Shown here: positions 1 to 8,977 of the stretch, piece after piece
Position numbering within the stretch: the stretch's first letter is position 1
Layout of the letters: each line of letters starts with the position of its first letter
IMG/VR virus record: IMGVR_UViG_2547132488_000020
Reading direction: 5' to 3' (one strand)
DNA: 8,977 bases
Source: a virus
Lineage: Duplodnaviria; Heunggongvirae; Uroviricota; Caudoviricetes
Translations under genes and position numbers: made by a program
The notes under the pieces: generated by a model
Told to the model about the DNA's origin: nothing
Databases searched by the model: none
Seen by the model: the letters and a program-made list of their open reading frames with translations, nothing else

Positions 1-16
1 AAGATGTGTAAATATT

Positions 17-62
17 GATTACGCCGGATTATGCCGGGTTATTTGCAAGTATTCAGGGTTAT
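17..62 (+). promoter_or_regulatory. Phased 10-bp direct-repeat element, copy A, upstream of the structural operon
   Basis: Hexamers GATTAC (17-22), GATTAT (27-32), GGTTAT (37-42), weaker AAGTAT (47-52) and GGTTAT (57-62) recur at exactly 10-bp spacing. Positions 17-42 match 4897-4922 at 23 of 26 bases. Role as a protein-binding site is inferred. Confidence 0.4.
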
Positions 63-177
63 AAGTTACTGATTTTACATTAAAAAGCTCACATTGTGGC
101 TATTGTGTTCGGCCTGGTTACTGTATATCTTTAAGTCATTCCAGACGATTTATTGCACAACAACCGGAGCATTTTTA

Positions 178-1062
178 ATGAACGTTTTATCTCAACTTAT
201 CAACGACGCGTTGAACCACCAGGGCGGCCATGTTCGCACTGATGGCAACGGTGATATTACTCAATTTATCCCTATGGAACCGGCAGCAGTTCGCTACCTG
301 TCCATGAATGACGTGCTGACCCCGAAAGGCGGCAAGCAGACTACCTTCAACGCTGTTCTGGCTGAACGTTCGCTGGTGGCACAGGCAGGCGCTGAAATCA
401 TCCGCATTCCTGGCCCGATGACCACGCAACCGACCGGCCAGACTGGTGCAACGACTGGCCGCGAAGTGGCTGACCGCTTCGTTGTCATCCGCCCTGGTGC
501 GTTCGCCAAAGTGGCTGACGGCGAAGAAATCAGCATGAGCGGCAAGCCGTACATGGTTGCAGCATTCGACCACAACACCGCACCGGCTTACGGCGTTGGC
601 TACACCCTGACCCGCCAGCAACTGAAACACGAATTCGCTGACGATACAGTGCTGGAAGCGGTCAACACCGCCATTGAACGCGGCATTGCCGATCTGGCTG
701 ACTTCGTGCTGCTGAACCACCTGGAAACCGCAGCGGAAACGCTGGCCAGCCCGTCATTCACCGCAGTGGCGCAGAAGATTGCAGCCAAAAACCTGCGCTT
801 TGATGAAGTTAAAGCCATTGTTGGCGGTGATTGCACCGGCCTGGAACTGCAAGACGGCGTTCTGCGCGCCTACGGTGTACGCGCTGAAATCAGCGGCCAG
901 ACTTCCAGCACAATCATTGGCGCTTTCGGCAATGCAGCCGTTGCCCTGGATGATGAAATTCGCGTCACCGCCAGACGCGTGCTGAATGGTGCGGTTGAAG
1001 TGGTGGTTTGGGTGAACGCATCCGCACTGGTGCCTGACTCAACTATGTTCTGGAAGGCTTGA
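178..1062 (+). CDS. Putative virion structural protein, possibly HK97-fold major capsid-like (294 aa); function unverified
   Basis: Long ORF with ATG at 178 preceded by GGAG (166-169) at 8-nt spacing. The 94-177 extension in the ORF track starts at TTG and reads as hydrophobic noise. Gly/Ala/Thr/Val-rich, acidic composition with a C-terminal segment IIGAFGNAAVALDDEIRV that resembles the conserved C-terminal strand of HK97-family capsid proteins (recalled from memory, not searched). First gene of an operon ending in a tape-measure gene. Confidence 0.6.
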   Translation: MNVLSQLINDALNHQGGHVRTDGNGDITQFIPMEPAAVRYLSMNDVLTPKGGKQTTFNAVLAERSLVAQAGAEIIRIPGPMTTQPTGQTGATTGREVADRFVVIRPGAFAKVADGEEISMSGKPYMVAAFDHNTAPAYGVGYTLTRQQLKHEFADDTVLEAVNTAIERGIADLADFVLLNHLETAAETLASPSFTAVAQKIAAKNLRFDEVKAIVGGDCTGLELQDGVLRAYGVRAEISGQTSSTIIGAFGNAAVALDDEIRVTARRVLNGAVEVVVWVNASALVPDSTMFWKA

Positions 1063-1064
1063 TC

Positions 1065-1379
1065 ATGTGGTGGGGCAGCAAAAAAGCGGCAGCGGAGCGC
1101 GCTGCCCTGCCGGGTGAAATCCTGGCAGCTATCGAAGGTGTGGCCATGTATGTGCGCCACGGTGATGAAAACACACCGCGCATCGTAGTGCAGCCGGTTG
1201 GCTGGTCAGGATTCATCTACAGCGATGACGCTGCTGAAAAATGGATTCGCAAGGCTTACCCGGAGATTAAGCAGTACCAGATTGAACGCGCCGTGAATTA
1301 CCTCGCTTCCCTGGTGCGCAGTCACTACCGCGAGCAGCGCCCGAAACAGAAGCGCGAAAGCTGGATGAACAGGTACTAA
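1065..1379 (+). CDS. Hypothetical protein (104 aa)
   Basis: ATG at 1065 with GGAAGG (1053-1058) SD at 6-nt spacing, 2 nt after the upstream stop; stop TAA 1377-1379 lies 3 nt before the next start. No motif recognised. Confidence 0.55.
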   Translation: MWWGSKKAAAERAALPGEILAAIEGVAMYVRHGDENTPRIVVQPVGWSGFIYSDDAAEKWIRKAYPEIKQYQIERAVNYLASLVRSHYREQRPKQKRESWMNRY

Positions 1380-1382
1380 GCC

Positions 1383-1547
1383 ATGAAACGACAAGAAACA
1401 CGCCAGCACGTAACGGTACGCCTCGCCCCTGACCTGGTGCGCCAGGTCGAAAGAGAGCAAGCCAAACTGGAACGCAGAACAGGCATCCGCCCTTCACGCA
1501 GCCAGGTGATTGAAAAGTTTCTGAGTAGCGGGCTGAACGGCAAATAA
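1383..1547 (+). CDS. Ribbon-helix-helix (CopG/Arc/MetJ-like) DNA-binding protein (54 aa)
   Basis: Hand translation gives MKRQETRQHVTVRLAPDLVRQVEREQAKLERRTGIRPSRSQVIEKFLSSGLNGK. The pattern beta-strand VTVRL, helix PDLVRQVEREQAK, Gly turn, helix RSQVIEKFL is the classic RHH layout. AGGT SD 8 nt upstream. Below the ORF-track size cutoff. Confidence 0.6.
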   Translation: MKRQETRQHVTVRLAPDLVRQVEREQAKLERRTGIRPSRSQVIEKFLSSGLNGK

Positions 1548-1761
1548 TGGCCAAGAATACAGGTTTCACCGGTTCCCTGTGCCCAAAATAACCGGCCAAA
1601 TTTAACCTTCATCGTTCCTCAGACGATGGATGCTGGAACCAGGTTGGTGGTCATCCTGGACGGTCAAAACCACCACTAATTCCACACCGGTTGCGCCGCA
1701 CCGGTCACCTAAAAGCGCGCACTCACTTAATCATCAACAACTATTGTTAGCGGCCAATACT

Positions 1762-2079
1762 ATGAAAAACCATGACCTGTACGAATCAATGAAAGAAGAA
1801 GCGCGTTTGATCCTTAGCGAAACAAAGCGTTTCCAAACCATTTCAGAGAAAAACCCAATCAGCTACGAAGCAGCCGACCTGCTGGCCAGCCTTCGCAACC
1901 GTTTAAACGCATTCGAACACATGACCGATGAAGCCGGTCGCGCCATGCGCAACGAAGCGGAAAGCCACGCATCGACCCTGGAACGCAAGAAGTGGCAACC
2001 ATCCAGCCGCATCAGTTCCGGTGAACGGGCCAAGCGCCAGGCAGTGAAGCGCGGCGCTATCCTGGTGCGGAGCGCATAA
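1762..2079 (+). CDS. Hypothetical helical, charged protein (105 aa; alternative start 1630 gives 149 aa)
   Basis: ORF in frame with 1630..2079. The N-terminal extension from 1630 is low-complexity and overlaps the CACCGGT motifs, so 1762 is preferred, but neither start has a good SD. Stop TAA 2077-2079 is 2 nt before the next ATG. Confidence 0.5.
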   Translation: MKNHDLYESMKEEARLILSETKRFQTISEKNPISYEAADLLASLRNRLNAFEHMTDEAGRAMRNEAESHASTLERKKWQPSSRISSGERAKRQAVKRGAILVRSA

Positions 2080-2081
2080 GA

Positions 2082-2291
2082 ATGGCAACCAACAACAACA
2101 TTTATGAAGCCGTTCTGAACGTCATCGGCGTAGCCGACAAGATGACGAAGAACAACGCAAGCCAACTGACCGACGCACAAAAGTTGGCGATCAAGAACCT
2201 TAGCGGCGCGATGAAGTCCTGGAAAGGTATCACGTTTGGGATGCGCGACATCACCGCCAACGACAAACCAACAGAAAGCAAAACCGCATAA
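2082..2291 (+). CDS. Hypothetical small protein (69 aa)
   Basis: ATG 2082 tightly following the upstream stop, with GGAG 2066-2069 upstream. Position just before the tape-measure gene is where tail assembly chaperones usually sit, but no sequence evidence supports that role. Confidence 0.5.
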   Translation: MATNNNIYEAVLNVIGVADKMTKNNASQLTDAQKLAIKNLSGAMKSWKGITFGMRDITANDKPTESKTA

Positions 2292-2300
2292 GGGGGCACC

Positions 2301-2507
2301 ATGCTGGACCGTATTCACACAAAACCGGAAGGAACAAACCCCTGGCCTGAACTGGTGGATATGGTCCTGCCCAAAGTTATGGTTTGCGAAACAGCGGAGG
2401 GAATGCAGGCACAGCGTAAACATCGCACCGAATGCGCCCTGCAACTGGCTGCTGCCGCCCTGCGGGCTGCTGGTGAACACACCCTGGCAGAAAATCTACT
2501 TAATTAA
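2301..2507 (+). CDS. Hypothetical small protein (68 aa)
   Basis: ATG 2301 preceded by a strong AGGGGG SD (2291-2296). Same reading frame as 2082..2291, separated only by TAA plus 9 nt. Confidence 0.5.
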   Translation: MLDRIHTKPEGTNPWPELVDMVLPKVMVCETAEGMQAQRKHRTECALQLAAAALRAAGEHTLAENLLN

Positions 2508-2528
2508 TTCTTTCAGAGACAAATTATT

Positions 2529-4820
2529 ATGGCCAATAAGAAGTTGAACGCCACAATCACCATCGGGGGTGCCGTTTCCGGCAGCCTCCGCGGTGCTTTT
2601 GGTACGGTGGAGAAATCCACCATCAAGATTGGCGCAGCGATTAAGCACATGTCGCGCGAACAGCGCCAGCTTAACGACGCTATGAAGCGTTATGGGCAAA
2701 ACTCCACGATGGTTGACCGCCTGCGCGGTCGTTACGAAAACATCGTAGGCCAGGTGGAACGCCTGCGGGCTGCGCAAGAGCGTTTAAACAGAGTGCAACG
2801 CGCCAGCACGGAAAACCTGGCCAAGCAGGCACAGCTACGCGGGCAGATTATCGATACCGTTATGGCTGGTGCTGCCGTTGCCGCACCTATCAAGATTGCC
2901 GCAGATCGTGAACAGCACGCCATTGGCATTGCCAAACAACTGGACGGCGCACGCGATGCAGCGGGCAACCTGACGGCGAAGTTTTGGGAAATGCGCAAGG
3001 CCGTTGCTGACCTTGGGCACGAAATTCCACTGGCCACAAACGACCTGTTTGACATGGCCACAGCAGGGCTGCGCATGGGCGTAGCTGGCGACCAAATCCT
3101 GGGGTTCACCCGGAACGTGGCCAAACTGGCCAGCGCCTTGGAACTGAACCCGGAAGAAGTCGCAGACAATATGGGCAAAATCCAGAATGTTTATCGACTT
3201 ACTCAAGCTGAGCTTGTGCGCCTTGGTGATGCTATTAATTACCTGGACGACCAAAACACCGTTAAAGGCGGTGAGCTTATCGACTTCCTACAGCGTGTTG
3301 GTGGTTCCGCCTCCCTCGCCAAACTCACTGCCAACGATATGGCAGCAATCGGCACCACGCTGATTTCTATGGGTGAAAGCGCAGACACTGCCGCAACGTC
3401 AGTGAAGGCGCTTGTTTCCAAGATGACGCTGGGCAGCAAATCCACGAAATCTGCGCGCGAAGCGTTCAAGGAATTGGGTTATTCCGCGCAGGAAGTGGCG
3501 AAATCCATGCAACTGGATAGCGTCAAGACCATCGAAAACTTTATGAAGACGGTCAACAAGCTGCCAGATTACAAGAAATCCGGCATCCTGGTGTCCATCT
3601 TCGGGCAGGAACACGTTGGTTCTATCTCCAAACTGGCAGCCAACATGGACAAGTTTGGCGAGGCGTTGCACCAGGCTAATGGCGAAATGTCCAAAGGCAG
3701 TGTGCAGAAGGAATTCCAGAACACCGTCAACACCACCAACGCGCAGATGGTTATCCTGCGTAACCGCACCGCTGACGTGGCTGACAATATCGGCACCGTC
3801 CTGCTGCCGACCGTCAACGACGCAGCCAAAGGCATTGGCCGCATCACAACTGTTGTGGCGAACTTCGCGGCGGAACACCCCGGCCTGACCAAAGCCGTGG
3901 TGGGCACAGCGATGGCGCTCACGTCCCTGCGTGTGGCCACCCTGGCGGCGCAGTTCGGCTTCACGTTCCTGAAAGGTGGCGTGTTGCAGATGTCCAGCCT
4001 GTTTGCCCGCATGAACGCATCTGCCGTTCTGGCCAGCACCCGTGGCCTGCCTGCGGTGGCTACCGGCATTCGTGCCGTTGGTGCGGCGTTCATATCCACT
4101 GGCGTGGGTGCTGCCGTAGCTGGCCTGGCGCTGGCAGGTTATCAGATTTACCGCCATTGGGCCGGTGTGAAGGCTTTTTTTGGTGGCGTTGGTGAAGGCA
4201 TCAAATCCGGGTTGGAACCGCTTAGCGATGCCCTGCATCGCCTGTATGAGCGCATGGGGCCATTGAAGCCCGTCATTGATGGCGTGGGCGCTGCGGTTAA
4301 GACGGTTTTCAACTGGTTCACGTCACTGACCGAACCGGTCAAATACAGCGGCGAGGAACTGGATAAGGCCGGTAAAATGGGGATGACGTTCGGTAAGACC
4401 CTGGCGGCTGGCATCGAGCTTGTGACCGCACCGATCACGTTCCTGATTGATAAGATTCTGTGGGTGTCTGACAACATCGGCAACCTGACCAACAAGGCAC
4501 TGGAGTTTAAAAACGCCGTGTCTGATGTTGCTGGTGGTGCGTGGCAGAAAACCAAAGATTTCTTTAGCAATCCGTTCGGTGAAGACGAAAGCAGCCAGCC
4601 AGCAGCGACCGCCGCCCCTGGTGCGTCCTTGCCTTCACCGGCACTGGCTAACCGCACCGGCAACACAACGGTGAACACGAACGACCAGTACACCATCAAC
4701 GTGAAGGCCGAGCCTGGCATGAATGAAGATGCGCTGGCAAATAAGGTGGCGCAGAAGCTGAAACAGCAGCAAGGAATCCGAAATCGTAGCATGATGAATG
4801 ACGGATTAGCAGCACCGTAA
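2529..4820 (+). CDS. Phage tail tape-measure protein-like (763 aa)
   Basis: Uninterrupted 2292-nt ORF. N-terminal Arg/Gln/Glu/Ala-rich helical region; a core (approx. aa 150-330) reading ATNDLFDMATAGLRMGVAGDQILGFTRNVAKLASALELNPEEVADNMGKI ... IGTTLISMGESADTAATSVKALVSKMTLGS that matches my memory of the TP901-family tape-measure core; a long Gly/Ala-rich hydrophobic segment (approx. aa 450-560). Size and layout are typical of TMPs. Not verified by search. Confidence 0.75.
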   Translation: MANKKLNATITIGGAVSGSLRGAFGTVEKSTIKIGAAIKHMSREQRQLNDAMKRYGQNSTMVDRLRGRYENIVGQVERLRAAQERLNRVQRASTENLAKQAQLRGQIIDTVMAGAAVAAPIKIAADREQHAIGIAKQLDGARDAAGNLTAKFWEMRKAVADLGHEIPLATNDLFDMATAGLRMGVAGDQILGFTRNVAKLASALELNPEEVADNMGKIQNVYRLTQAELVRLGDAINYLDDQNTVKGGELIDFLQRVGGSASLAKLTANDMAAIGTTLISMGESADTAATSVKALVSKMTLGSKSTKSAREAFKELGYSAQEVAKSMQLDSVKTIENFMKTVNKLPDYKKSGILVSIFGQEHVGSISKLAANMDKFGEALHQANGEMSKGSVQKEFQNTVNTTNAQMVILRNRTADVADNIGTVLLPTVNDAAKGIGRITTVVANFAAEHPGLTKAVVGTAMALTSLRVATLAAQFGFTFLKGGVLQMSSLFARMNASAVLASTRGLPAVATGIRAVGAAFISTGVGAAVAGLALAGYQIYRHWAGVKAFFGGVGEGIKSGLEPLSDALHRLYERMGPLKPVIDGVGAAVKTVFNWFTSLTEPVKYSGEELDKAGKMGMTFGKTLAAGIELVTAPITFLIDKILWVSDNIGNLTNKALEFKNAVSDVAGGAWQKTKDFFSNPFGEDESSQPAATAAPGASLPSPALANRTGNTTVNTNDQYTINVKAEPGMNEDALANKVAQKLKQQQGIRNRSMMNDGLAAP

Positions 4821-4896: not shown

Positions 4897-4922
4897 GATT
4901 ATGCCGGATTATGTGGGGTTAT
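4897..4922 (+). promoter_or_regulatory. Phased 10-bp direct-repeat element, copy B, upstream of the replication operon
   Basis: GATTATGCCGGATTATGTGGGGTTAT; 23 of 26 bases identical to 17-42, with GATTAT, GATTAT, GGTTAT at 10-bp phasing. Confidence 0.4.
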
Positions 4923-4992
4923 GAGTGACATTTACCTTTTTAAATGCCTGAAATTATTTATGAATTTTCGGCCTATATTTTGGCAAAATAGC

Positions 4993-5020
4993 TTGCAGAA
5001 ACCGGATTGCAGGGTATCAT
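4993..5020 (+). promoter_or_regulatory. Candidate sigma70-type promoter for the replication operon
   Basis: TTGCAG (4993-4998), 16-bp spacer, TATCAT (5015-5020); predicted start near 5027. Sequence match only. Confidence 0.35.
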
Positions 5021-5025
5021 TTGAA

Positions 5026-5050
5026 TTGTGGCGCTTGCACACCGCCACAA
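5026..5050. promoter_or_regulatory. Perfect inverted repeat TTGTGGCG-N9-CGCCACAA (operator-like or RNA hairpin)
   Basis: 8-bp perfect arms 5026-5033 and 5043-5050 with a 9-bp spacer, sitting at the predicted start site of the 4993-5020 promoter. Confidence 0.35.
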
Positions 5051-5051
5051 A

Positions 5052-5120
5052 AAGGAAAACCCCCGGACTGCGCGAACAATCCAGGGGGCTTAATGAAAGT
5101 CTAGGTTAGCGGCCTGACTA
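5052..5120 (-). ncRNA. Candidate small antisense RNA (about 65 nt) with its own promoter and intrinsic terminator
   Basis: On the minus strand: TTGCTA (plus 5150-5155), 17-bp spacer, TAGTAT (plus 5127-5132); no ATG in the transcribed stretch; GC-rich hairpin (plus 5060-5066 pairing with 5081-5088, one bulge) followed on the minus strand by UUUUCCUUUUU (plus 5049-5059). Ends are approximate. Confidence 0.3.
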
Positions 5121-5221
5121 GGAAAAATACTAGCAAAGACCTTTACCTTTAGCAAGTTAAACCCCCCTTCATTGAGCCACCGATTTTAGCGCAGCCTCAA
5201 CGAAATATTGAGGAATGCGAA

Positions 5222-5497
5222 ATGAAATTGCACGACCTGGCTGACGCCATCCTGAAAACCAGAACCGTTGAAACTCGCTGTGATGCTGCGTTCAAATTCG
5301 CTGACGCTATGCTGCGCAACGGTTCAAGCATCACCGACACAGCGGAAGCAACCTACCGCATTGTAATGCGCGGGAACAAAGCCTACCGCCTGAACAAAGA
5401 TGACGCCTGGCGCATCACTGCGCACGCCTACGCTGAACAACTGGCGGAACGCGAAGTGGCCACCGTCCTGGCGCAGATTGCCGGGGGTGCGAAATGA
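5222..5497 (+). CDS. Small hypothetical protein, first gene of the replication operon (91 aa)
   Basis: ATG 5222 with GAGGA SD (5210-5214) at 7-nt spacing; stop overlaps the next start as ATGA. Shares the motif [YF]x[LF]N[KR]xDAW and an AGGA[KA] C-terminus with the next ORF. Confidence 0.6.
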   Translation: MKLHDLADAILKTRTVETRCDAAFKFADAMLRNGSSITDTAEATYRIVMRGNKAYRLNKDDAWRITAHAYAEQLAEREVATVLAQIAGGAK

Positions 5498-5727
5498 GCA
5501 TCATCACCCTGCATCGCCTTATGCGCGAACCTGCTACCAGCCAGACGCACGCACAGTGCGTGGCCATCATGCAGGAACTGATTAAGCAGGCCATCCAGTC
5601 TGGCCGCCCGCTGCAATATTCCATCTACCTGGGGCACCTGGCAGAGCACACCCGCTTCCCGTTCAACCGCGTGGACGCCTGGCAAATGGCGCTGGATATG
5701 CAGCGCAAGGCAGGGGGTGCGGCATGA
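5494..5727 (+). CDS. Small hypothetical protein resembling the preceding ORF (77 aa)
   Basis: Start overlaps the upstream stop (ATGA at 5494-5497) and its stop overlaps the primase start (ATGA at 5724-5727). GGGGGTG SD-like sequence sits inside the upstream C-terminus. Confidence 0.6.
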   Translation: MSIITLHRLMREPATSQTHAQCVAIMQELIKQAIQSGRPLQYSIYLGHLAEHTRFPFNRVDAWQMALDMQRKAGGAA

Positions 5728-8012
5728 GTCTGGCACACGAAAAGTACGCCTGGACTGAACAGGACGCAGCCGAGGCGTTGACATTTATTGACCCTGATTG
5801 CGACCACGAAACCTGGACCCGCCTGGCGTTTGCGGTGAAGGCTGAATTTGGTGACGCTGGATTTGATGTCTGGAACGATTGGAGCAAACAGGGCCAGAAG
5901 TACGACAGCAAAGAAGCACGCCAGAAGTGGAAAAGCGCCAAGCGGCACGGCGGAGTAACCATCGGCACGCTGATTGACCTTTCCATGCAGAACGGCTGGA
6001 AGCCGGGCACCAGGAAAGAGCTTTCAATAGACGAGATTCAGGCTCGCGCCGCGAAGCGTGAGGCCGAAGCTAAAGCCGAGGCAGAGCGCAAGCGCCACGA
6101 CCAGGCAGCAGCGGCAGCCCGCGCCCTGGAAATATGGGAAGCATCGGAACCGCTGGAAGGTAACGAACACCCGTATTTGCAGCGCAAAGGTGTGCTGTCT
6201 TTCGGCCTGAACGTTGGCCGCTGGAAGGGATACGAAAATGCACTGCTGGTGCCAATCCGCAACGCTGATGGTTCCCTAACCAGCTTGCAGGCAATCTTCC
6301 CGAACACCAACACTGACCTGGGCCGTGACCGTGACTACCTGAAAGACGGCCAGAAGCACGGTTGTTTCCACCTGATTGGCGGTAAGCCTGTTGGCGAAAA
6401 GCCGGTGATTGTGGTTTGCGAGGGTTACGCCACTGGTGCCAGCATCCACCAGGCAACAGGCCATTACGTGGCCGTGGCTTTCGACAGGAGCAACCTTAAA
6501 GCTGTGGCGCAGGCCATGCGCAAGATGGTTGGCCGCGCCACAATAATTGTGGCCGCTGATAACGACCAGTGGGAGAAGGGCAACCCCGGAAAAACCGATG
6601 CAGGTAAGGCAGCGCAGGCGGTTGGCGGCCTGGTGGCTGTGCCTGAATTCGATGACCTGACCACGAAGCCGACCGACTTCAACGACCTGCATAAATTGCA
6701 GGGAATTGATGCCGTGCGCAGCCAGGTGCAGGCTGTTATTCCAGCACCGGAGGAAAAGCGGTTCCTGCCACTGGATTCTAATGTGGTGCCGTTTGACTTC
6801 CCCTACACGTCAGACAGGATGCAGCCGCTTAACAACTGGGAAAACCTTGATTGGCTGTTAAGTCAGTACGGCATTACCGCTCGTTACAACGAGATCAGCA
6901 AGGAAGTTGAAATCAACGTGCCTGGTAAAAGCTATGGCGGTGACGGTGATGACGATAGCGCGCTGATTGAAGTGACCAGCCTGTGCGCCCGTAACCGGAT
7001 GCCAAAAGCTGACGTGGCTGACTACATCAAACTGATTGGCAAAGAGAACCGTTACAACCCGGTCAAAGACTTCATTCTGTCCAGGCCGTGGGATGGTTGC
7101 AGCCGGTTTGCTGACCTGTTAGCCACCATTGAAACGCCAGCAGATTACAGCCGTGACCTGATGGCGCTACTGATGAAACGCTGGCTGGTGTCGGCAGTGG
7201 CGGCGACATTTGAGGAACGCGGGTTCTGGTCCAAAGGCATCCTGGTGTTCCAGGGGGAGCAATCCCTTGGGAAAACGTCATGGATTAAGGCGCTGCTGCC
7301 GGAGGAAGAACAGGAAAAGCTATTGCTGGTTGGTGCTGCGATGGACCCTAGCAACAAAGACAGCGTATCGCAGGCAATTGGCCGCTGGATTGTGGAGCTT
7401 GGCGAACTGGACACCACATTCCGCAAGTCTGACATATCGGACCTGAAAAACTTCATCAGCCGCCCACATGACGTGCTGCGCAAGCCGTATGATCGCCGTG
7501 AATCGAAGTATAAGCGCAGGACTGTGTTCTTCGCATCAGTGAACCCGAAACACTTCCTGCATGACGAAACCGGCAACGTGCGTTTCTGGACCATTCCGGT
7601 GACCGGGCTGAACTATAATCACGGCATCGACGTGCAGCAGTTATGGGCCGAAGTGCATCACTGGTACACGAAAGGCGAACGCTGGTGGCTGGAACGCGAG
7701 GAAGAACAGCGCCTGGAAGCGGTGAACGCTGACCACGCGCAGGTTGACCCGCTCGAGGAAATGATTTTAGCCCGCTTCCGCTGGGATGAAACCCGCATGG
7801 AGGTTTACACCGAAATGTCAGCCGCAGAAGTGCTGATAGCGATTGGCTACGACAAGCCAACCAAATCGCAGGCCACATCATGCGGCAACATCCTGCGCAA
7901 GCTGACTGGCAAGGAGCCGCGCAGAACAGCCAAAGGGCGGTTCTACCCGATACCGCCAAAAGAATTACCAAAGCCACAAAGCTATTACGACGAAACCCAA
8001 GGCCCATTTTGA
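5724..8012 (+). CDS. Replicative primase-helicase, P4 alpha-type (Toprim primase plus P-loop NTPase; 762 aa)
   Basis: Toprim motifs VVCEGYATG (Glu233, nt 6417-6425) and AADNDQW (Asp279/Asp281, nt 6558-6566); Walker A GEQSLGKTS (aa 511-519, nt 7254-7280); Walker B-like IVELGELD; Trp-rich N-terminal domain ending GVTIGTLIDL. Architecture matches the phage/plasmid primase P4 family from memory. Confidence 0.9.
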   Translation: MSLAHEKYAWTEQDAAEALTFIDPDCDHETWTRLAFAVKAEFGDAGFDVWNDWSKQGQKYDSKEARQKWKSAKRHGGVTIGTLIDLSMQNGWKPGTRKELSIDEIQARAAKREAEAKAEAERKRHDQAAAAARALEIWEASEPLEGNEHPYLQRKGVLSFGLNVGRWKGYENALLVPIRNADGSLTSLQAIFPNTNTDLGRDRDYLKDGQKHGCFHLIGGKPVGEKPVIVVCEGYATGASIHQATGHYVAVAFDRSNLKAVAQAMRKMVGRATIIVAADNDQWEKGNPGKTDAGKAAQAVGGLVAVPEFDDLTTKPTDFNDLHKLQGIDAVRSQVQAVIPAPEEKRFLPLDSNVVPFDFPYTSDRMQPLNNWENLDWLLSQYGITARYNEISKEVEINVPGKSYGGDGDDDSALIEVTSLCARNRMPKADVADYIKLIGKENRYNPVKDFILSRPWDGCSRFADLLATIETPADYSRDLMALLMKRWLVSAVAATFEERGFWSKGILVFQGEQSLGKTSWIKALLPEEEQEKLLLVGAAMDPSNKDSVSQAIGRWIVELGELDTTFRKSDISDLKNFISRPHDVLRKPYDRRESKYKRRTVFFASVNPKHFLHDETGNVRFWTIPVTGLNYNHGIDVQQLWAEVHHWYTKGERWWLEREEEQRLEAVNADHAQVDPLEEMILARFRWDETRMEVYTEMSAAEVLIAIGYDKPTKSQATSCGNILRKLTGKEPRRTAKGRFYPIPPKELPKPQSYYDETQGPF

Positions 8013-8022
8013 GGAATAAATC

Positions 8023-8250
8023 ATGAGTTATCGCGCGATCATCAGTACATTTGACCCTGAAAACGCATCAACTGTTAACACTGAATTATTCCAGACCTTC
8101 GCAACCGCACCAGAAGCGGAAGCACATGGACGGAAATCACTTGCAGAGATTCAGCAGGAATTCTTCCAGATGGGTTATGCGTTCATCGTCAGCTACTTCA
8201 TCGTTGAAGTACCAGCGGCGGAAATCATCCAGTTTATTGCCCGCACGTAA
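8023..8250 (+). CDS. Hypothetical small protein (75 aa) at the end of the replication operon
   Basis: ATG 8023 with GAGGA SD 7 nt upstream, 10 nt after the primase stop; followed by a terminator. No motif recognised. Confidence 0.55.
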   Translation: MSYRAIISTFDPENASTVNTELFQTFATAPEAEAHGRKSLAEIQQEFFQMGYAFIVSYFIVEVPAAEIIQFIART

Positions 8251-8300: not shown

Positions 8301-8311
8301 TTGTCTGGCTG

Positions 8312-8572
8312 TGACACCTAGGTGTCATCCTGTCTTAAGGTGTCACAGTCGTAAGTGTCTGTTTTTGCTTATTAATGACACCTATGACACCTATGACACC
8401 TATTTTGAAAGATTTATTAGACCGTAAAAAACCGCCGCGAAATAACGGTTACCCTTTTTTTGAAAACAGGTGTCAAGGTGTCACTACCAACCCATGCAAT
8501 CAGCATAAATCGCATATGAATCATGCACTTATGTGTGTGACACCTATGGTGACACCTCAACCCAAGGTGTCA
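8312..8572. repeat. Iteron array: 11 copies of heptamer TGACACC/GGTGTCA flanking an AT-rich stretch; putative replication origin
   Basis: Forward copies at 8312, 8376, 8385, 8394, 8538, 8550; reverse copies at 8321, 8339, 8469, 8477, 8566. Includes a perfect 16-bp palindrome (8312-8327) and three tandem TGACACCTA 9-mers (8376-8402). AT-rich segment 8401-8466 with A6 and T7 runs. Confidence 0.7.
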
Positions 8573-8977
8573 TTCTTTCAGGGCATAGCTGCGCACCGTT
8601 ATGGCGTTATGAATCCACTCATTTGTAACAACGCTTTTTCACATCTAACCAAAGCGGCAGCCGGAATAGGTACAACATACAGAAGTATGATGTAACTACA
8701 GGAAACGAGCCTTTCAGCCTTGTTTTGCGTTCAAACAGTAGCTGCTCAGTAAACAGCCAGAACGTTGCACATATCGCAACAATAAGCCTGTGTGAATACG
8801 GGCTGAAAGCGCGCGGAATATGTCAGATTATGCGCCGTTCGCCTGCCAGCACCTTCCTGGTGCTTCTTTCTGCCTGCAAACCCACCATATTTAACATAAT
8901 GGACCTTGCGCGCACCGACTGGACGCCTGCCTGCCTCAAAAATCGAAGGTACTTCCGAGGGGGCACAGCCTGCGGGG

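What the first reader, a model, noticed from the sequence alone, without database searches (positions are those of the whole stretch)
4897..4922. Second copy of the phased-repeat element upstream of the replication operon
A 26-bp element 23/26 identical to 17-42 lies ~4.9 kb downstream, again upstream of a + strand operon and ~75 bp before a candidate promoter. Either both operons share one regulator, or the two copies are the duplicated borders of an inserted structural cassette (178-4820).
Basis: seen in the sequence. Interest (0 to 1): 0.55.

Follow-up and report, generated by a model that had tools for sequence, protein, structure and literature searches.

The report
Shared excisionase-type operator array, two operons
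The 26-bp repeat is real: it is a row of 6-bp boxes spaced one DNA turn apart, placed before both operons of a small phage-satellite plasmid, and it matches arrays in the likely helper phages, so it probably lets one small phage-type regulator switch both operons.

Summary
Observation confirmed: 17-42 and 4897-4922 are 23/26 identical, and no shuffle of 200 gives such a pair. Each copy is three 10-bp units: a 6-bp box, consensus RRT(T/G)A(T/A/C), plus a 4-bp spacer. The left copy continues in phase to position 62, giving five units.

The window is a nearly complete ~9.1-kb circular satellite-like plasmid. It carries a capsid-to-tape-measure operon and a primase operon. It has no integrase and no AlpA/HTH_17 gene.

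Relatives down to 40% capsid identity, including a Pseudomonas element, keep phased arrays before both operons. Boxes diverge half as fast as spacers. Integrated relatives (fis-site PICIs) also carry a six-box array 12 bp from the attL core.

Jilinvirus phages, whose primase, tape measure and TerS are the closest phage homologues, carry 6-8 such arrays in attP, early-switch or other intergenic regions. Lambda, P2 and 65 kb of chromosome have none. These phages encode an HTH_17 "excisionase and transcriptional regulator", which some satellites also carry.

Best reading: an Apl/Cox/Vis-type operator array co-regulating both operons, probably read by a helper-supplied protein. The cassette-border idea is not supported. 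Binding, the sign of regulation and transcription starts are untested.

The parts
17..62 (+). Left (structural-operon) array. Five 10-bp units with boxes GATTAC(17), GATTAT(27), GGTTAT(37), the degenerate AAGTAT(47) and GGTTAT(57).
   Evidence: Orthologous five-unit arrays in L022 and L025, L150 and a three-box array in L027.
4897..4932 (+). Right (replication-operon) array. Boxes GATTAT(4897), GATTAT(4907), GGTTAT(4917) and a degenerate fourth, GACATT(4927).
   Evidence: Orthologous arrays in L001, L003-5, L019, L022, L025 and L027, and four-box arrays in islands L002, L017, L018, L020, L023 and L149.
4930..4945 (.). Degenerate palindrome ATTTACCTTTTTAAAT directly after the right array. Relatives and Jilinvirus-type phages have a clean TTTAC-N4-GTAAA. 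It is probably a second operator for a different, dimeric factor.
   Evidence: Alignment A2. Palindrome hits in L027 (both operons), L148, L151, HeidiAbel, ep3 and PPpW-3. The function is inferred.
4993..5020 (+). Candidate replication-operon promoter TTGCAG-16-TATCAT, 8/12 to the sigma-70 consensus.
   Evidence: Read. The -35 hexamer is conserved in L022 and L025 and shifted in L027. It was not called by the scan. No transcript start data.
89..120 (+). Conserved block TCACATTGTGGCTATTGTGTTCGGCCTGGTTA between the left array and the capsid gene. It probably holds the structural-operon promoter or a late-activator site.
   Evidence: Conserved in L022, L025 and L150. Present inverted (29/32) in relatives that lack the left array. 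The function is inferred.
178..4820 (+). Structural operon: 294-aa capsid-family protein, five small ORFs and a 763-aa tail tape measure protein.
   Evidence: homologues named major capsid protein, some fused to an HK97-type prohead protease. (tape measure 42-47% identical to Jilinvirus/Hiroshimavirus).
5222..8250 (+). Replication operon: 91-aa and 77-aa ORFs, a 762-aa PriCT_2/Toprim/VapE primase-helicase and a 75-aa ORF.
   Evidence: primase 61% identical to the HeidiAbel and ep3 primases.
8305..8575 (.). Origin-type iterons (GGTGTCA units in both orientations). They are distinct from the phased arrays.
   Evidence: (I1, I5, I8). Similar GGTGAC/GGTCACC iterons in HeidiAbel at 38440-38790.

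Best explanation
The 26-bp element is the core of an operator array. It consists of 6-bp boxes, consensus RRT(T/G)A(T/A/C), repeated head-to-tail every 10 bp so that all boxes lie on one face of the helix. This is the site architecture of recombination-directionality-factor regulators (lambda Xis, 186 Apl, P2 Cox, P4 Vis, AlpA). These small winged-helix proteins bind cooperatively head-to-tail, one protomer per turn, and bend the DNA.

One array sits upstream of each of the element's two operons, so one protein can control replication and structural genes together.

The window is a plasmid-form satellite that encodes no such protein. The binder is therefore most likely supplied in trans. The best candidate is the HTH_17 'excisionase and transcriptional regulator' of a Jilinvirus-like helper phage, whose own genome carries the same arrays. 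An AlpA/HTH_17 protein from a resident related island is the alternative. This would couple both operons to helper infection, as P2 Cox does for the P4 PLL promoter.

Shown: the array architecture, its conservation, its places in relatives and in candidate helpers, and the absence of a cognate gene in the window.
Inferred: the identity of the binder, whether it activates or represses, and the promoter positions.
For: 1. Architecture. Both copies are three 10-bp units. Across 22 family loci, arrays of at least 3 boxes number 42 at period 10, against 2, 0, 6, 1, 2, 0, 0 at periods 7, 8, 9, 11, 12, 13, 14.

2. Conservation. Arrays precede both operons in Cronobacter L022 (capsid 75% identical), L025 (69%) and Pseudomonas L027 (40%). 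Between orthologous arrays, box positions differ at 17% and spacers at 37%.

3. Att-site occurrence. In integrated relatives, a six-box array lies 12 bp from the 17-bp attL core, between the core and int (L002 4351-4406, core 4322-4338). This is the classic place for RDF sites. A four-box array lies just upstream of a TTTAAA-16-TACAAT promoter for alpA.

4. Candidate helpers. The box pattern was defined on satellites only and then applied to phages. HeidiAbel has 8 period-10 arrays (one is really ori iterons) and ep3 has 6. All eight HeidiAbel arrays and at least five of the six ep3 arrays lie in intergenic regions; the sixth lies in an unannotated gap (attP region, cI/helicase switch, upstream of the late activator). 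Lambda has 0, P2 has 0, and 65.5 kb of flanking chromosome has 0. Local-shuffle means are 0.01-0.08.

5. These phages are the closest phage relatives of the element's primase (61%), tape measure (42-47%) and the relatives' TerS (42-53%).

6. HeidiAbel gp36, annotated 'excisionase and transcriptional regulator', is homologous to the HTH_17 proteins of satellites L022, L025 and L027 (49-62%). Phage ep3 lacks an integrase but keeps this gene and the arrays.

7. Published rule. RDF sites are direct repeats one helix turn apart. 186 Apl has 6-bp operators, 7 at pR-pL and 5 at attP, with cooperative binding and bending (PMC7498355; annotated in the 186 record).

8. Precedent. P4 has three tandem 10-bp TTAAAG-N-CA units at 9176-9205, upstream of its vis/PLL side. 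The P2 record says Cox activates the P4 promoter.

9. AlpA of Gram-negative PICIs activates its own promoter, and its induction depends on an unidentified helper factor (PMC6092414).
Against: - No binding, footprint, reporter or transcript data exist. The binder is inferred from architecture and co-occurrence only.
- The window encodes no AlpA/HTH_17 protein, so in this particular element the arrays could be relics of an ancestor that had one. Window-type plasmids are too similar to each other to show purifying selection on their own.
- Islands carry AlpA while other satellites and the phages carry HTH_17. These are different families, so one shared box type for both is not guaranteed.
- The box pattern is loose (about 0.9% of positions). 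Box-versus-spacer conservation is partly circular, because arrays were found with that pattern.
- In the window the arrays lie about 70 bp (right) and about 40 bp (left) upstream of the candidate -35 elements. That is further than a simple class I/II activator site.
- No helper-satellite relationship with Jilinvirus has been demonstrated, and the capsid protein has no detectable phage homologue in the phage collection.
- PPpW-3, the Pseudomonas relative, shows only one array.
Confidence: 0.6

Rival explanations
1. The array is read by a protein encoded by the element itself. One candidate is the universal 54-aa protein of the structural operon (1383-1547), which could be a ribbon-helix-helix protein binding tandem sites. 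Another is the 91-aa first product of the replication operon (5222-5497). Either would give autoregulation and cross-talk between the two operons without any helper input.
For: - A p54 homologue is found in most relatives that carry arrays, though tblastn misses it in the array-bearing L027.
- Its AF2 model (pLDDT 80) is an extended N-terminus followed by two helices, a topology compatible with an RHH monomer.
- The 91-aa protein occurs only in the plasmids that lack AlpA/HTH_17, and it occupies AlpA's position as first gene after the promoter.
Against: - There is no Pfam, PHROG or PDB support for DNA binding by either protein.
- Fold searches are non-significant for both.
- The 91-aa protein is a four-helix bundle-like model with no wing or HTH match.
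- Neither protein exists in the Jilinvirus phages that carry the same arrays.
- RHH dimers prefer symmetric sub-sites, whereas these boxes are asymmetric direct repeats.
Confidence: 0.15
2. No dedicated regulator is involved. The phased TTAT/TGAT steps make an intrinsically bent or anisotropically flexible upstream element, or a site for a general host architectural protein. This would stimulate promoters and help att-site folding.
For: - Exact 10-bp phasing on one helical face.
- Location upstream of promoters and in an att arm, where bending matters.
- The same box type is used by elements with different small HTH proteins.
Against: - Positions 3 (T) and 5 (A) are nearly invariant and G/A is preferred at 1-2, which looks like base-specific recognition.
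- No array occurs in 65.5 kb of host chromosome, lambda or P2, so it is not a general host motif in that sample.
- The spacers are GC-rich in the window, which is not typical of curved A-tract DNA.
Confidence: 0.1
3. The two copies are the duplicated borders (insertion scars or recombination sites) of a structural cassette, 178-4820, that was inserted into a replicon.
For: The copies are direct repeats that bracket the capsid-to-tape-measure block.
Against: - Relatives have the cassette without the left copy (L004, L017, L018, L023, L148).
- Homology break-points are at 177/178 and 4732, not at the repeats.
- Arrays of the same kind occur at attL, in leaders and in phages.
- Every relative of the island replication module found in E. 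coli carries the structural module, so there is no empty site.
Confidence: 0.03
4. The arrays are packaging-recognition (pac/cosB-like) sites bound by a small terminase subunit.
For: - TerS sites in several phages are phased direct repeats (own knowledge).
- Some relatives carry a TerS gene related to the Jilinvirus TerS.
Against: - There are two or more arrays per element, always at promoter or att positions.
- Arrays are present in elements without TerS.
- In HeidiAbel none lies next to terS.
Confidence: 0.04

Closest known systems
Apl operators of coliphage 186 (dual excisionase and lysis-lysogeny regulator)
   Same: 6-bp operators occur as direct repeats 10-11 bp apart. Arrays of 5 (attP) and 7 (pR-pL) are used both at the att arm and at promoters, with cooperative head-to-tail binding and DNA bending (PMC7498355; 186 record). 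Here there are arrays of 3-6 boxes at period 10, at attL of integrated relatives, at phage attP and switch regions, and at both operons of the window.
   Different: The box sequence differs: 186 uses TTGGCA/TTGCCA-type boxes, and the 186 region has 0 arrays under the present pattern. Apl is a Cox-like protein, whereas the candidate here is HTH_17/AlpA. In the window the arrays lie upstream of the promoters rather than between convergent promoters, and no cognate gene is on the element.
P2 Cox boxes upstream of the PLL promoter of satellite P4
   Same: A satellite carries a short tandem array of helper-RDF boxes next to the promoter of its replication-side operon. P4 9176-9205 is three tandem 10-bp units, each containing TTAAAG-N-CA. 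The P2 record states that Cox activates the P4 promoter. This is the same logic as proposed here: helper RDF as inducer, three boxes, 10-bp phase.
   Different: The box sequence and helper lineage differ (Peduoviridae versus Jilinvirus-like). Here the array is present before two operons, including the structural one. The element is plasmid-like without an integrase. Equating the P4 units with Cox boxes rests on my recollection of the published consensus TTAAAGNCA; the P4 record labels them 'ori type 2 repeat'.
P4 Vis and AlpA of Gram-negative PICIs
   Same: These are small AlpA-family proteins encoded as the first gene of the replication-side operon. They act as excision factor and/or activator of their own promoter. 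Helper-dependent induction occurs by an unidentified phage factor (PMC6092414; PMC10111431). The integrated relatives of the window are fis-site PICIs with exactly this layout and with arrays upstream of alpA.
   Different: The window has neither int nor alpA. No AlpA binding site has been defined in the papers I could read, so equivalence of the arrays with AlpA sites is untested.
PLE / ICP1 PexA (helper-encoded RDF hijacked by a satellite)
   Same: The satellite depends on a helper-encoded recombination directionality factor as its trigger (PMC6002521, title and abstract seen).
   Different: PLE uses a serine recombinase and protein-protein recognition. No phased operator arrays at promoters are described there.

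Membership tests
RDF-type (Xis/Apl/Cox/Vis) operator array | Three or more short (6-9 bp) boxes in direct, head-to-tail orientation | tested here: met
   There are 3 boxes at 4897-4922 (plus a degenerate fourth) and 5 units at 17-62. Relatives have 3-6.
RDF-type (Xis/Apl/Cox/Vis) operator array | Spacing of one helical turn (10-11 bp) between boxes | tested here: met
   Spacing is exactly 10 bp. There are 42 arrays at period 10 against 0-6 at periods 7-9 and 11-14 in 22 family loci. The window gives 2 at period 10 and 0 at all other periods.
RDF-type (Xis/Apl/Cox/Vis) operator array | Same boxes present in an att arm next to the recombination core | tested here: met
   This cannot be tested in the window, which has no att site. 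It is met in integrated relatives: a six-box array lies 12 bp from the attL core in L002, and likewise in L017, L018, L020 and L023. It is also met in the HeidiAbel attP region next to tRNA-Arg/int.
RDF-type (Xis/Apl/Cox/Vis) operator array | Second set of sites at promoters (dual recombination and transcription role) | tested here: met
   Arrays lie upstream of both operons in the window and relatives, at the cI/helicase switch of HeidiAbel and ep3, and before the late-activator gene. The promoters themselves are only predicted.
RDF-type (Xis/Apl/Cox/Vis) operator array | Cognate small winged-helix/HTH RDF gene encoded by the same element | tested here: not met
   The window has no AlpA, HTH_17 or Xis-like ORF (Pfam; tblastn). 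Such genes are present in relatives (AlpA in islands; HTH_17 in L022, L025, L027) and in Jilinvirus phages.
RDF-type (Xis/Apl/Cox/Vis) operator array | Demonstrated cooperative binding and bending by the protein | not testable with these tools
   This needs EMSA, footprinting or bending assays.
P2 Cox box / 186 Apl box (specific sequence families) | Box sequence TTAAAGNCA (P2 Cox) or TTGGCA-type (186 Apl) | tested here: not met
   The window boxes are GRTTAY. P2 and the 186 switch/att region give 0 arrays with the present pattern.
Replication-origin iterons | Repeats clustered in the origin next to the initiator gene and matching the initiator's iterons | tested here: not met
   A separate iteron cluster (GGTGTCA units) lies at 8305-8575 after the primase operon. 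The arrays lie elsewhere, and also in att arms and phage switch regions.
Cassette borders / target-site duplication | Repeats coincide with the homology break-points, and an empty site has a single copy | tested here: not met
   The break-points are at 177/178 and 4732. The cassette is present without the left copy in five relatives. No empty site was found.
Gram-negative PICI, fis-site subfamily (for the element as a whole) | int, alpA and pri in one direction, integrated at the 3' end of fis | tested here: not met
   The window has pri only and is plasmid-like (closest records are 8.9-9.3-kb circular plasmids). Relatives L002, L017, L018, L148 and L150 meet all features, and their att block equals the published fis block.
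CRISPR repeat (Rfam CRISPR-DR11) | Score above the Rfam gathering threshold and a repeat-spacer array | tested here: not met
   The match at 13-49 scores 23.9 bits against a gathering score of 45, with E = 0.58. The units are 10 bp with no spacers.

The most novel reading that the evidence does not exclude
A widespread and, as far as I could find, undescribed branch of capsid-plus-tape-measure satellites exists in two forms: integrated fis-site PICIs and integrase-less ~9-kb plasmids. These have wired both their replication and structural promoters, and in the integrated forms also their attL, to the operator code of the Jilinvirus-type excisionase/regulator. On this reading the helper's own RDF is the long-sought phage-encoded inducer that switches on excision, alpA/replication and structural genes at once. 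The plasmid forms have gone furthest: they have discarded their own RDF and depend entirely on the helper's.
Probability: 0.3. Interest if true: 0.7.

Novelty: new member of a known kind. Interest (0 to 1): 0.5.

Why it matters
[quoted passage not shown] In the papers I could read that factor was still unidentified (PMC6092414).

Here the cis-element upstream of the replication/alpA promoter, of the structural operon and of attL has the same box type and phase as arrays in the att and switch regions of the most closely related phages. This names a concrete candidate, the phage HTH_17 excisionase/regulator. It also gives short, mutable target sites for a direct test.

The work also places an uncharacterised group of ~9-kb "non-mobilizable cryptic plasmids" of E. 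coli, Salmonella, Proteus and Cronobacter among phage satellites. If binding is not confirmed, the result remains an ordinary shared operator.

Tried and rejected
- Exact-pattern scan of IMG/VR for GATTAYGCCGGATTATG: only two family members were found. The other eight hits are coding-sequence coincidences.
- Scan of IMG/VR for GRTTAT-N4-GRTTAT-N4-GRTTAT: swamped by unrelated tandem repeats, mostly in giant-virus contigs. Uninformative.
- blastn of the right regulatory region against phages: only chance 24-nt matches.
- The search for related loci with the capsid protein in genome contigs: nothing. In viral contigs: three close relatives only.
- Rfam: nothing above threshold.
- Pfam, PHROGs and PDB sequence searches of all small ORFs: no DNA-binding family. 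The ubiquitin hits for p54 are spurious.
- AF2 plus Foldseek for the 91-aa and 54-aa proteins: confident helical models but no significant fold match, so neither could be promoted to binder.
- A sigma-70 promoter scan called no promoter on the + strand. The promoter positions given here are by eye and by conservation.
- Host response-regulator sites (OmpR, CpxR, ArcA, PhoB-type direct repeats) and low-affinity DnaA arrays were considered from memory. They were set aside because their periods (mostly 11 bp) or cores do not match, and because no arrays occur in the flanking chromosome. This was not formally tested.
- Literature searches for a described satellite of Jilinvirus, or a tape-measure-carrying satellite of this kind, found none.

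Full report
**1. The observation**

Positions 17-42 (GATTACGCCGGATTATGCCGGGTTAT) and 4897-4922 (GATTATGCCGGATTATGTGGGGTTAT) are 23/26 identical, direct and 4880 bp apart. A degenerate consensus with up to 3 mismatches finds only these two places. None of 200 dinucleotide-preserving shuffles gave a hit.

Each copy is three 10-bp units, a 6-bp box plus a 4-bp spacer. The left array continues in phase to position 62 (boxes at 17, 27, 37 and 57, with a degenerate AAGTAT at 47). The right array has a degenerate fourth box at 4927.

Both arrays precede + strand operons. The 178-4820 operon runs from a 294-aa protein, through five small ORFs, to a PF10145 tape measure protein. The 5222-8250 operon holds 91-aa and 77-aa ORFs, a PriCT_2/Toprim/VapE primase-helicase and a 75-aa ORF.

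**2. What the window is**

The closest records are 8.9-9.3-kb circular, "non-mobilizable" plasmids of E. coli, Salmonella and Proteus. pSCU-121-2 (9,138 bp) covers 100% of the window at 98.7% identity. Relative to that plasmid the window lacks about 161 bp between its end and its start. It is therefore an almost complete circle in which the two arrays head the two transcription units.

The 294-aa protein belongs to a capsid family. One homologue is named "Phage major capsid protein" by UniRef. Two are fused to an HK97-type prohead protease domain.

In 65 E. coli chromosomes the same structural module (window 1-4732 or 177-4732) sits in a ~9.5-kb island between yhdJ and fis. The island order is int, AlpA, a 93-aa ORF, a VapE primase, an iteron origin and then the capsid-to-tape-measure operon. 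Its 17-bp att core TTAGTTCATGCCGTATT is the reverse complement of the published att block of "fis PICIs" (PMC10111431).

The window is thus an integrase-less, AlpA-less plasmid form of a PICI-like satellite family. Its primase is of a different type from the island primase.

**3. Comparative test of the repeat**

- Window-type plasmids keep both copies.
- Cronobacter L022 (capsid 75% identical) and L025 (69%) have a five-unit array before the capsid gene and a three-unit array before the replication operon.
- The Pseudomonas element L027 (40%) has three-box arrays at both places, built mainly of GATGAA-type boxes. Box type therefore co-varies between the two sites of one element.
- The islands have a four-box array (for example L002 5750-5785, GATTATatagAGTTATgtagCGTTATttgcAGTTAA). 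It lies immediately upstream of a TTTAAA-16-TACAAT promoter for alpA.

I derived a loose box pattern, [ACG][AG]T[TG]A[TAC], from the satellites. With it, arrays of at least 3 boxes in 22 family loci number 42 at period 10. They number 2, 0, 6, 1, 2, 0, 0 at periods 7, 8, 9, 11, 12, 13, 14. There are none in 65.5 kb of chromosomal flanks.

Between orthologous arrays, box positions differ at 17% and spacers at 37%. This holds in all five array classes. The comparison is partly circular, because arrays were located with the pattern. However, the non-matching AAGTAT unit is also conserved.

**4. Two unexpected places**

The scan also found minus-strand arrays in the islands. A six-box array lies 12 bp from the attL core, between the core and int (L002 4351-4406; also L017, L018, L020, L023). 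A three-box array lies just upstream of the alpA start codon.

Short direct repeats one helical turn apart, present both in an att arm and at promoters, are the signature of recombination directionality factors that double as regulators. The review of this in the 186 Apl paper is explicit: 6-bp operators, 10-11 bp spacing, 5 at attP and 7 at pR-pL, cooperative head-to-tail binding and bending (PMC7498355). The 186 and P2 records annotate those sites.

**5. Link to candidate helper phages**

The tape measure is 42-47% identical over its full length to those of small myoviruses of the Jilinvirus/Hiroshimavirus group. The primase is 61% identical to the Jilinvirus primase. The TerS carried by some relatives is 42-53% identical to the Jilinvirus TerS.

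I then applied the satellite-derived pattern to these genomes, unchanged.

| Genome | Arrays at period 10 | Arrays at other periods |
|---|---|---|
| HeidiAbel | 8 | 0-1 |
| ep3 | 6 | 0-1 |
| PPpW-3 | 1 | 0 |
| lambda | 0 | 0-1 |
| P2 | 0 | 0-1 |

Local-composition shuffles give means of 0.01-0.08.

One HeidiAbel hit is really origin iterons. The other seven lie in intergenic regions:
- two next to tRNA-Arg/int (attP), beside separate ACCCTAAAC repeats that look like Int arm sites;
- one four-box array in the cI/helicase divergent region, ending on the helicase ATG;
- one at the 3' end of cI;
- one before the late-activator gene;
- two others.

HeidiAbel gp36 is annotated "excisionase and transcriptional regulator". 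It is homologous (49-62%) to the HTH_17 proteins encoded by satellites L022, L025 and L027. Phage ep3 has no integrase but keeps both this gene and the arrays. That argues for this protein rather than Int as the binder, and for a regulatory role beyond excision.

**6. Who binds in the window**

The window has no AlpA, HTH_17 or other recognisable DNA-binding ORF.

The 91-aa first product of the replication operon is restricted to exactly the plasmids that lack AlpA/HTH_17. Its confident AF2 model is a four-helix protein with no significant fold match.

The near-universal 54-aa protein has an RHH-compatible topology, but without significant support.

The most economical reading is therefore that the protein comes in trans, from a Jilinvirus-like helper or from a resident island. 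This would make both operons helper-responsive. It is inference.

The best precedent is P4. At 9176-9205 it has three tandem 10-bp units, each containing TTAAAG-N-CA, on the upstream side of the vis/PLL operon. The P2 record states that Cox activates the P4 promoter. That these units are the Cox boxes rests on my memory of the published consensus.

**7. What is not known**

Transcription starts are unknown. A conserved TTGCAG-16-TATCAT at 4993-5020 and a conserved block at 89-120 are the best promoter candidates. The scan tool called neither. With them, the arrays would lie well upstream of the -35 elements, about 70 bp and about 40 bp. The sign of regulation cannot be deduced. No binding has been shown for any protein.

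**8. The cassette-border idea**

Five relatives carry the structural cassette with a different upstream region and no left array (L004, L017, L018, L023, L148). Homology break-points are at 177/178 and 4732, not at the repeats. No relative without the structural module was found. The idea is rejected.

**9. Verdict**

The repeat is a real, conserved, phased operator array of the excisionase/RDF type, shared by both operons. It is a new member of a known kind. Its added interest is that the element lacks the cognate protein while its probable helper phages carry both the protein and the same arrays.

Noticed in passing
window 5060-5087 (minus strand); leader 5027-5221; L002 about 5849-5870: A strong intrinsic terminator on the minus strand (12-bp stem plus a T-run) lies inside the ~190-nt leader of the replication operon. 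An equivalent minus-strand hairpin plus T-run is seen by eye in the island leader. The leader also holds a block, ATACTAGCAAAG (about 5127-5138), that is invariant from E. coli to Pseudomonas. This suggests an antisense or countertranscript RNA, or an RNA switch, controlling the primase operon.
   Followed up: partly
window 89-120; L017 5891-5922: A 32-bp block, TCACATTGTGGCTATTGTGTTCGG..TTA, lies between the left array and the capsid gene. In relatives that lack the left array it is present in the opposite orientation (29/32 identical). It could be an invertible or rearranged promoter segment.
   Followed up: partly
window 4930-4945; L027 259 and 5041; L148 9857; L151 6181; HeidiAbel 31304 and 36745; ep3 10502; PPpW-3 36488: A second shared cis-element is the palindrome TTTAC-N4-GTAAA. 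It occurs before both operons of the Pseudomonas element, in island replication-upstream regions, and in the phages, in three of the four phage cases just after the primase gene. The window has only a degenerate copy.
   Followed up: partly
L152 (Salmonella contig) 3280-14542: A relative with a different replication module is inserted inside a prophage's protease/capsid gene, and its own capsid gene is fused to a Peptidase_S78 domain. This is the 'helper-embedded PICI' configuration described in PMC10111431.
   Followed up: no
window 8305-8575: The iteron origin is made of GGTGTCA units in both orientations. HeidiAbel has similar GGTGAC/GGTCACC iterons at 38440-38790. Together with the 61%-identical primase, this suggests the satellite origin could be fired by, or compete with, the helper initiator.
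   Followed up: no
L149, L151, L148, L004: The structural module is variable. Serratia and Klebsiella islands lack the tape measure gene. L148 and the Salmonella plasmid L004 carry an extra TerS-like gene, annotated AbiEi in one record.
   Followed up: no
CP077066.1 (L006), 17,382 bp: One E. coli plasmid record looks like a head-to-tail dimer of the ~8.7-kb element, with every gene annotated twice in the same order. This is either a real multimer or an assembly artefact.
   Followed up: no
window 13-49: There is a sub-threshold Rfam match of the left array to CRISPR-DR11 (23.9 bits against a gathering score of 45; E = 0.58). It is a chance resemblance of a repetitive sequence.
   Followed up: yes
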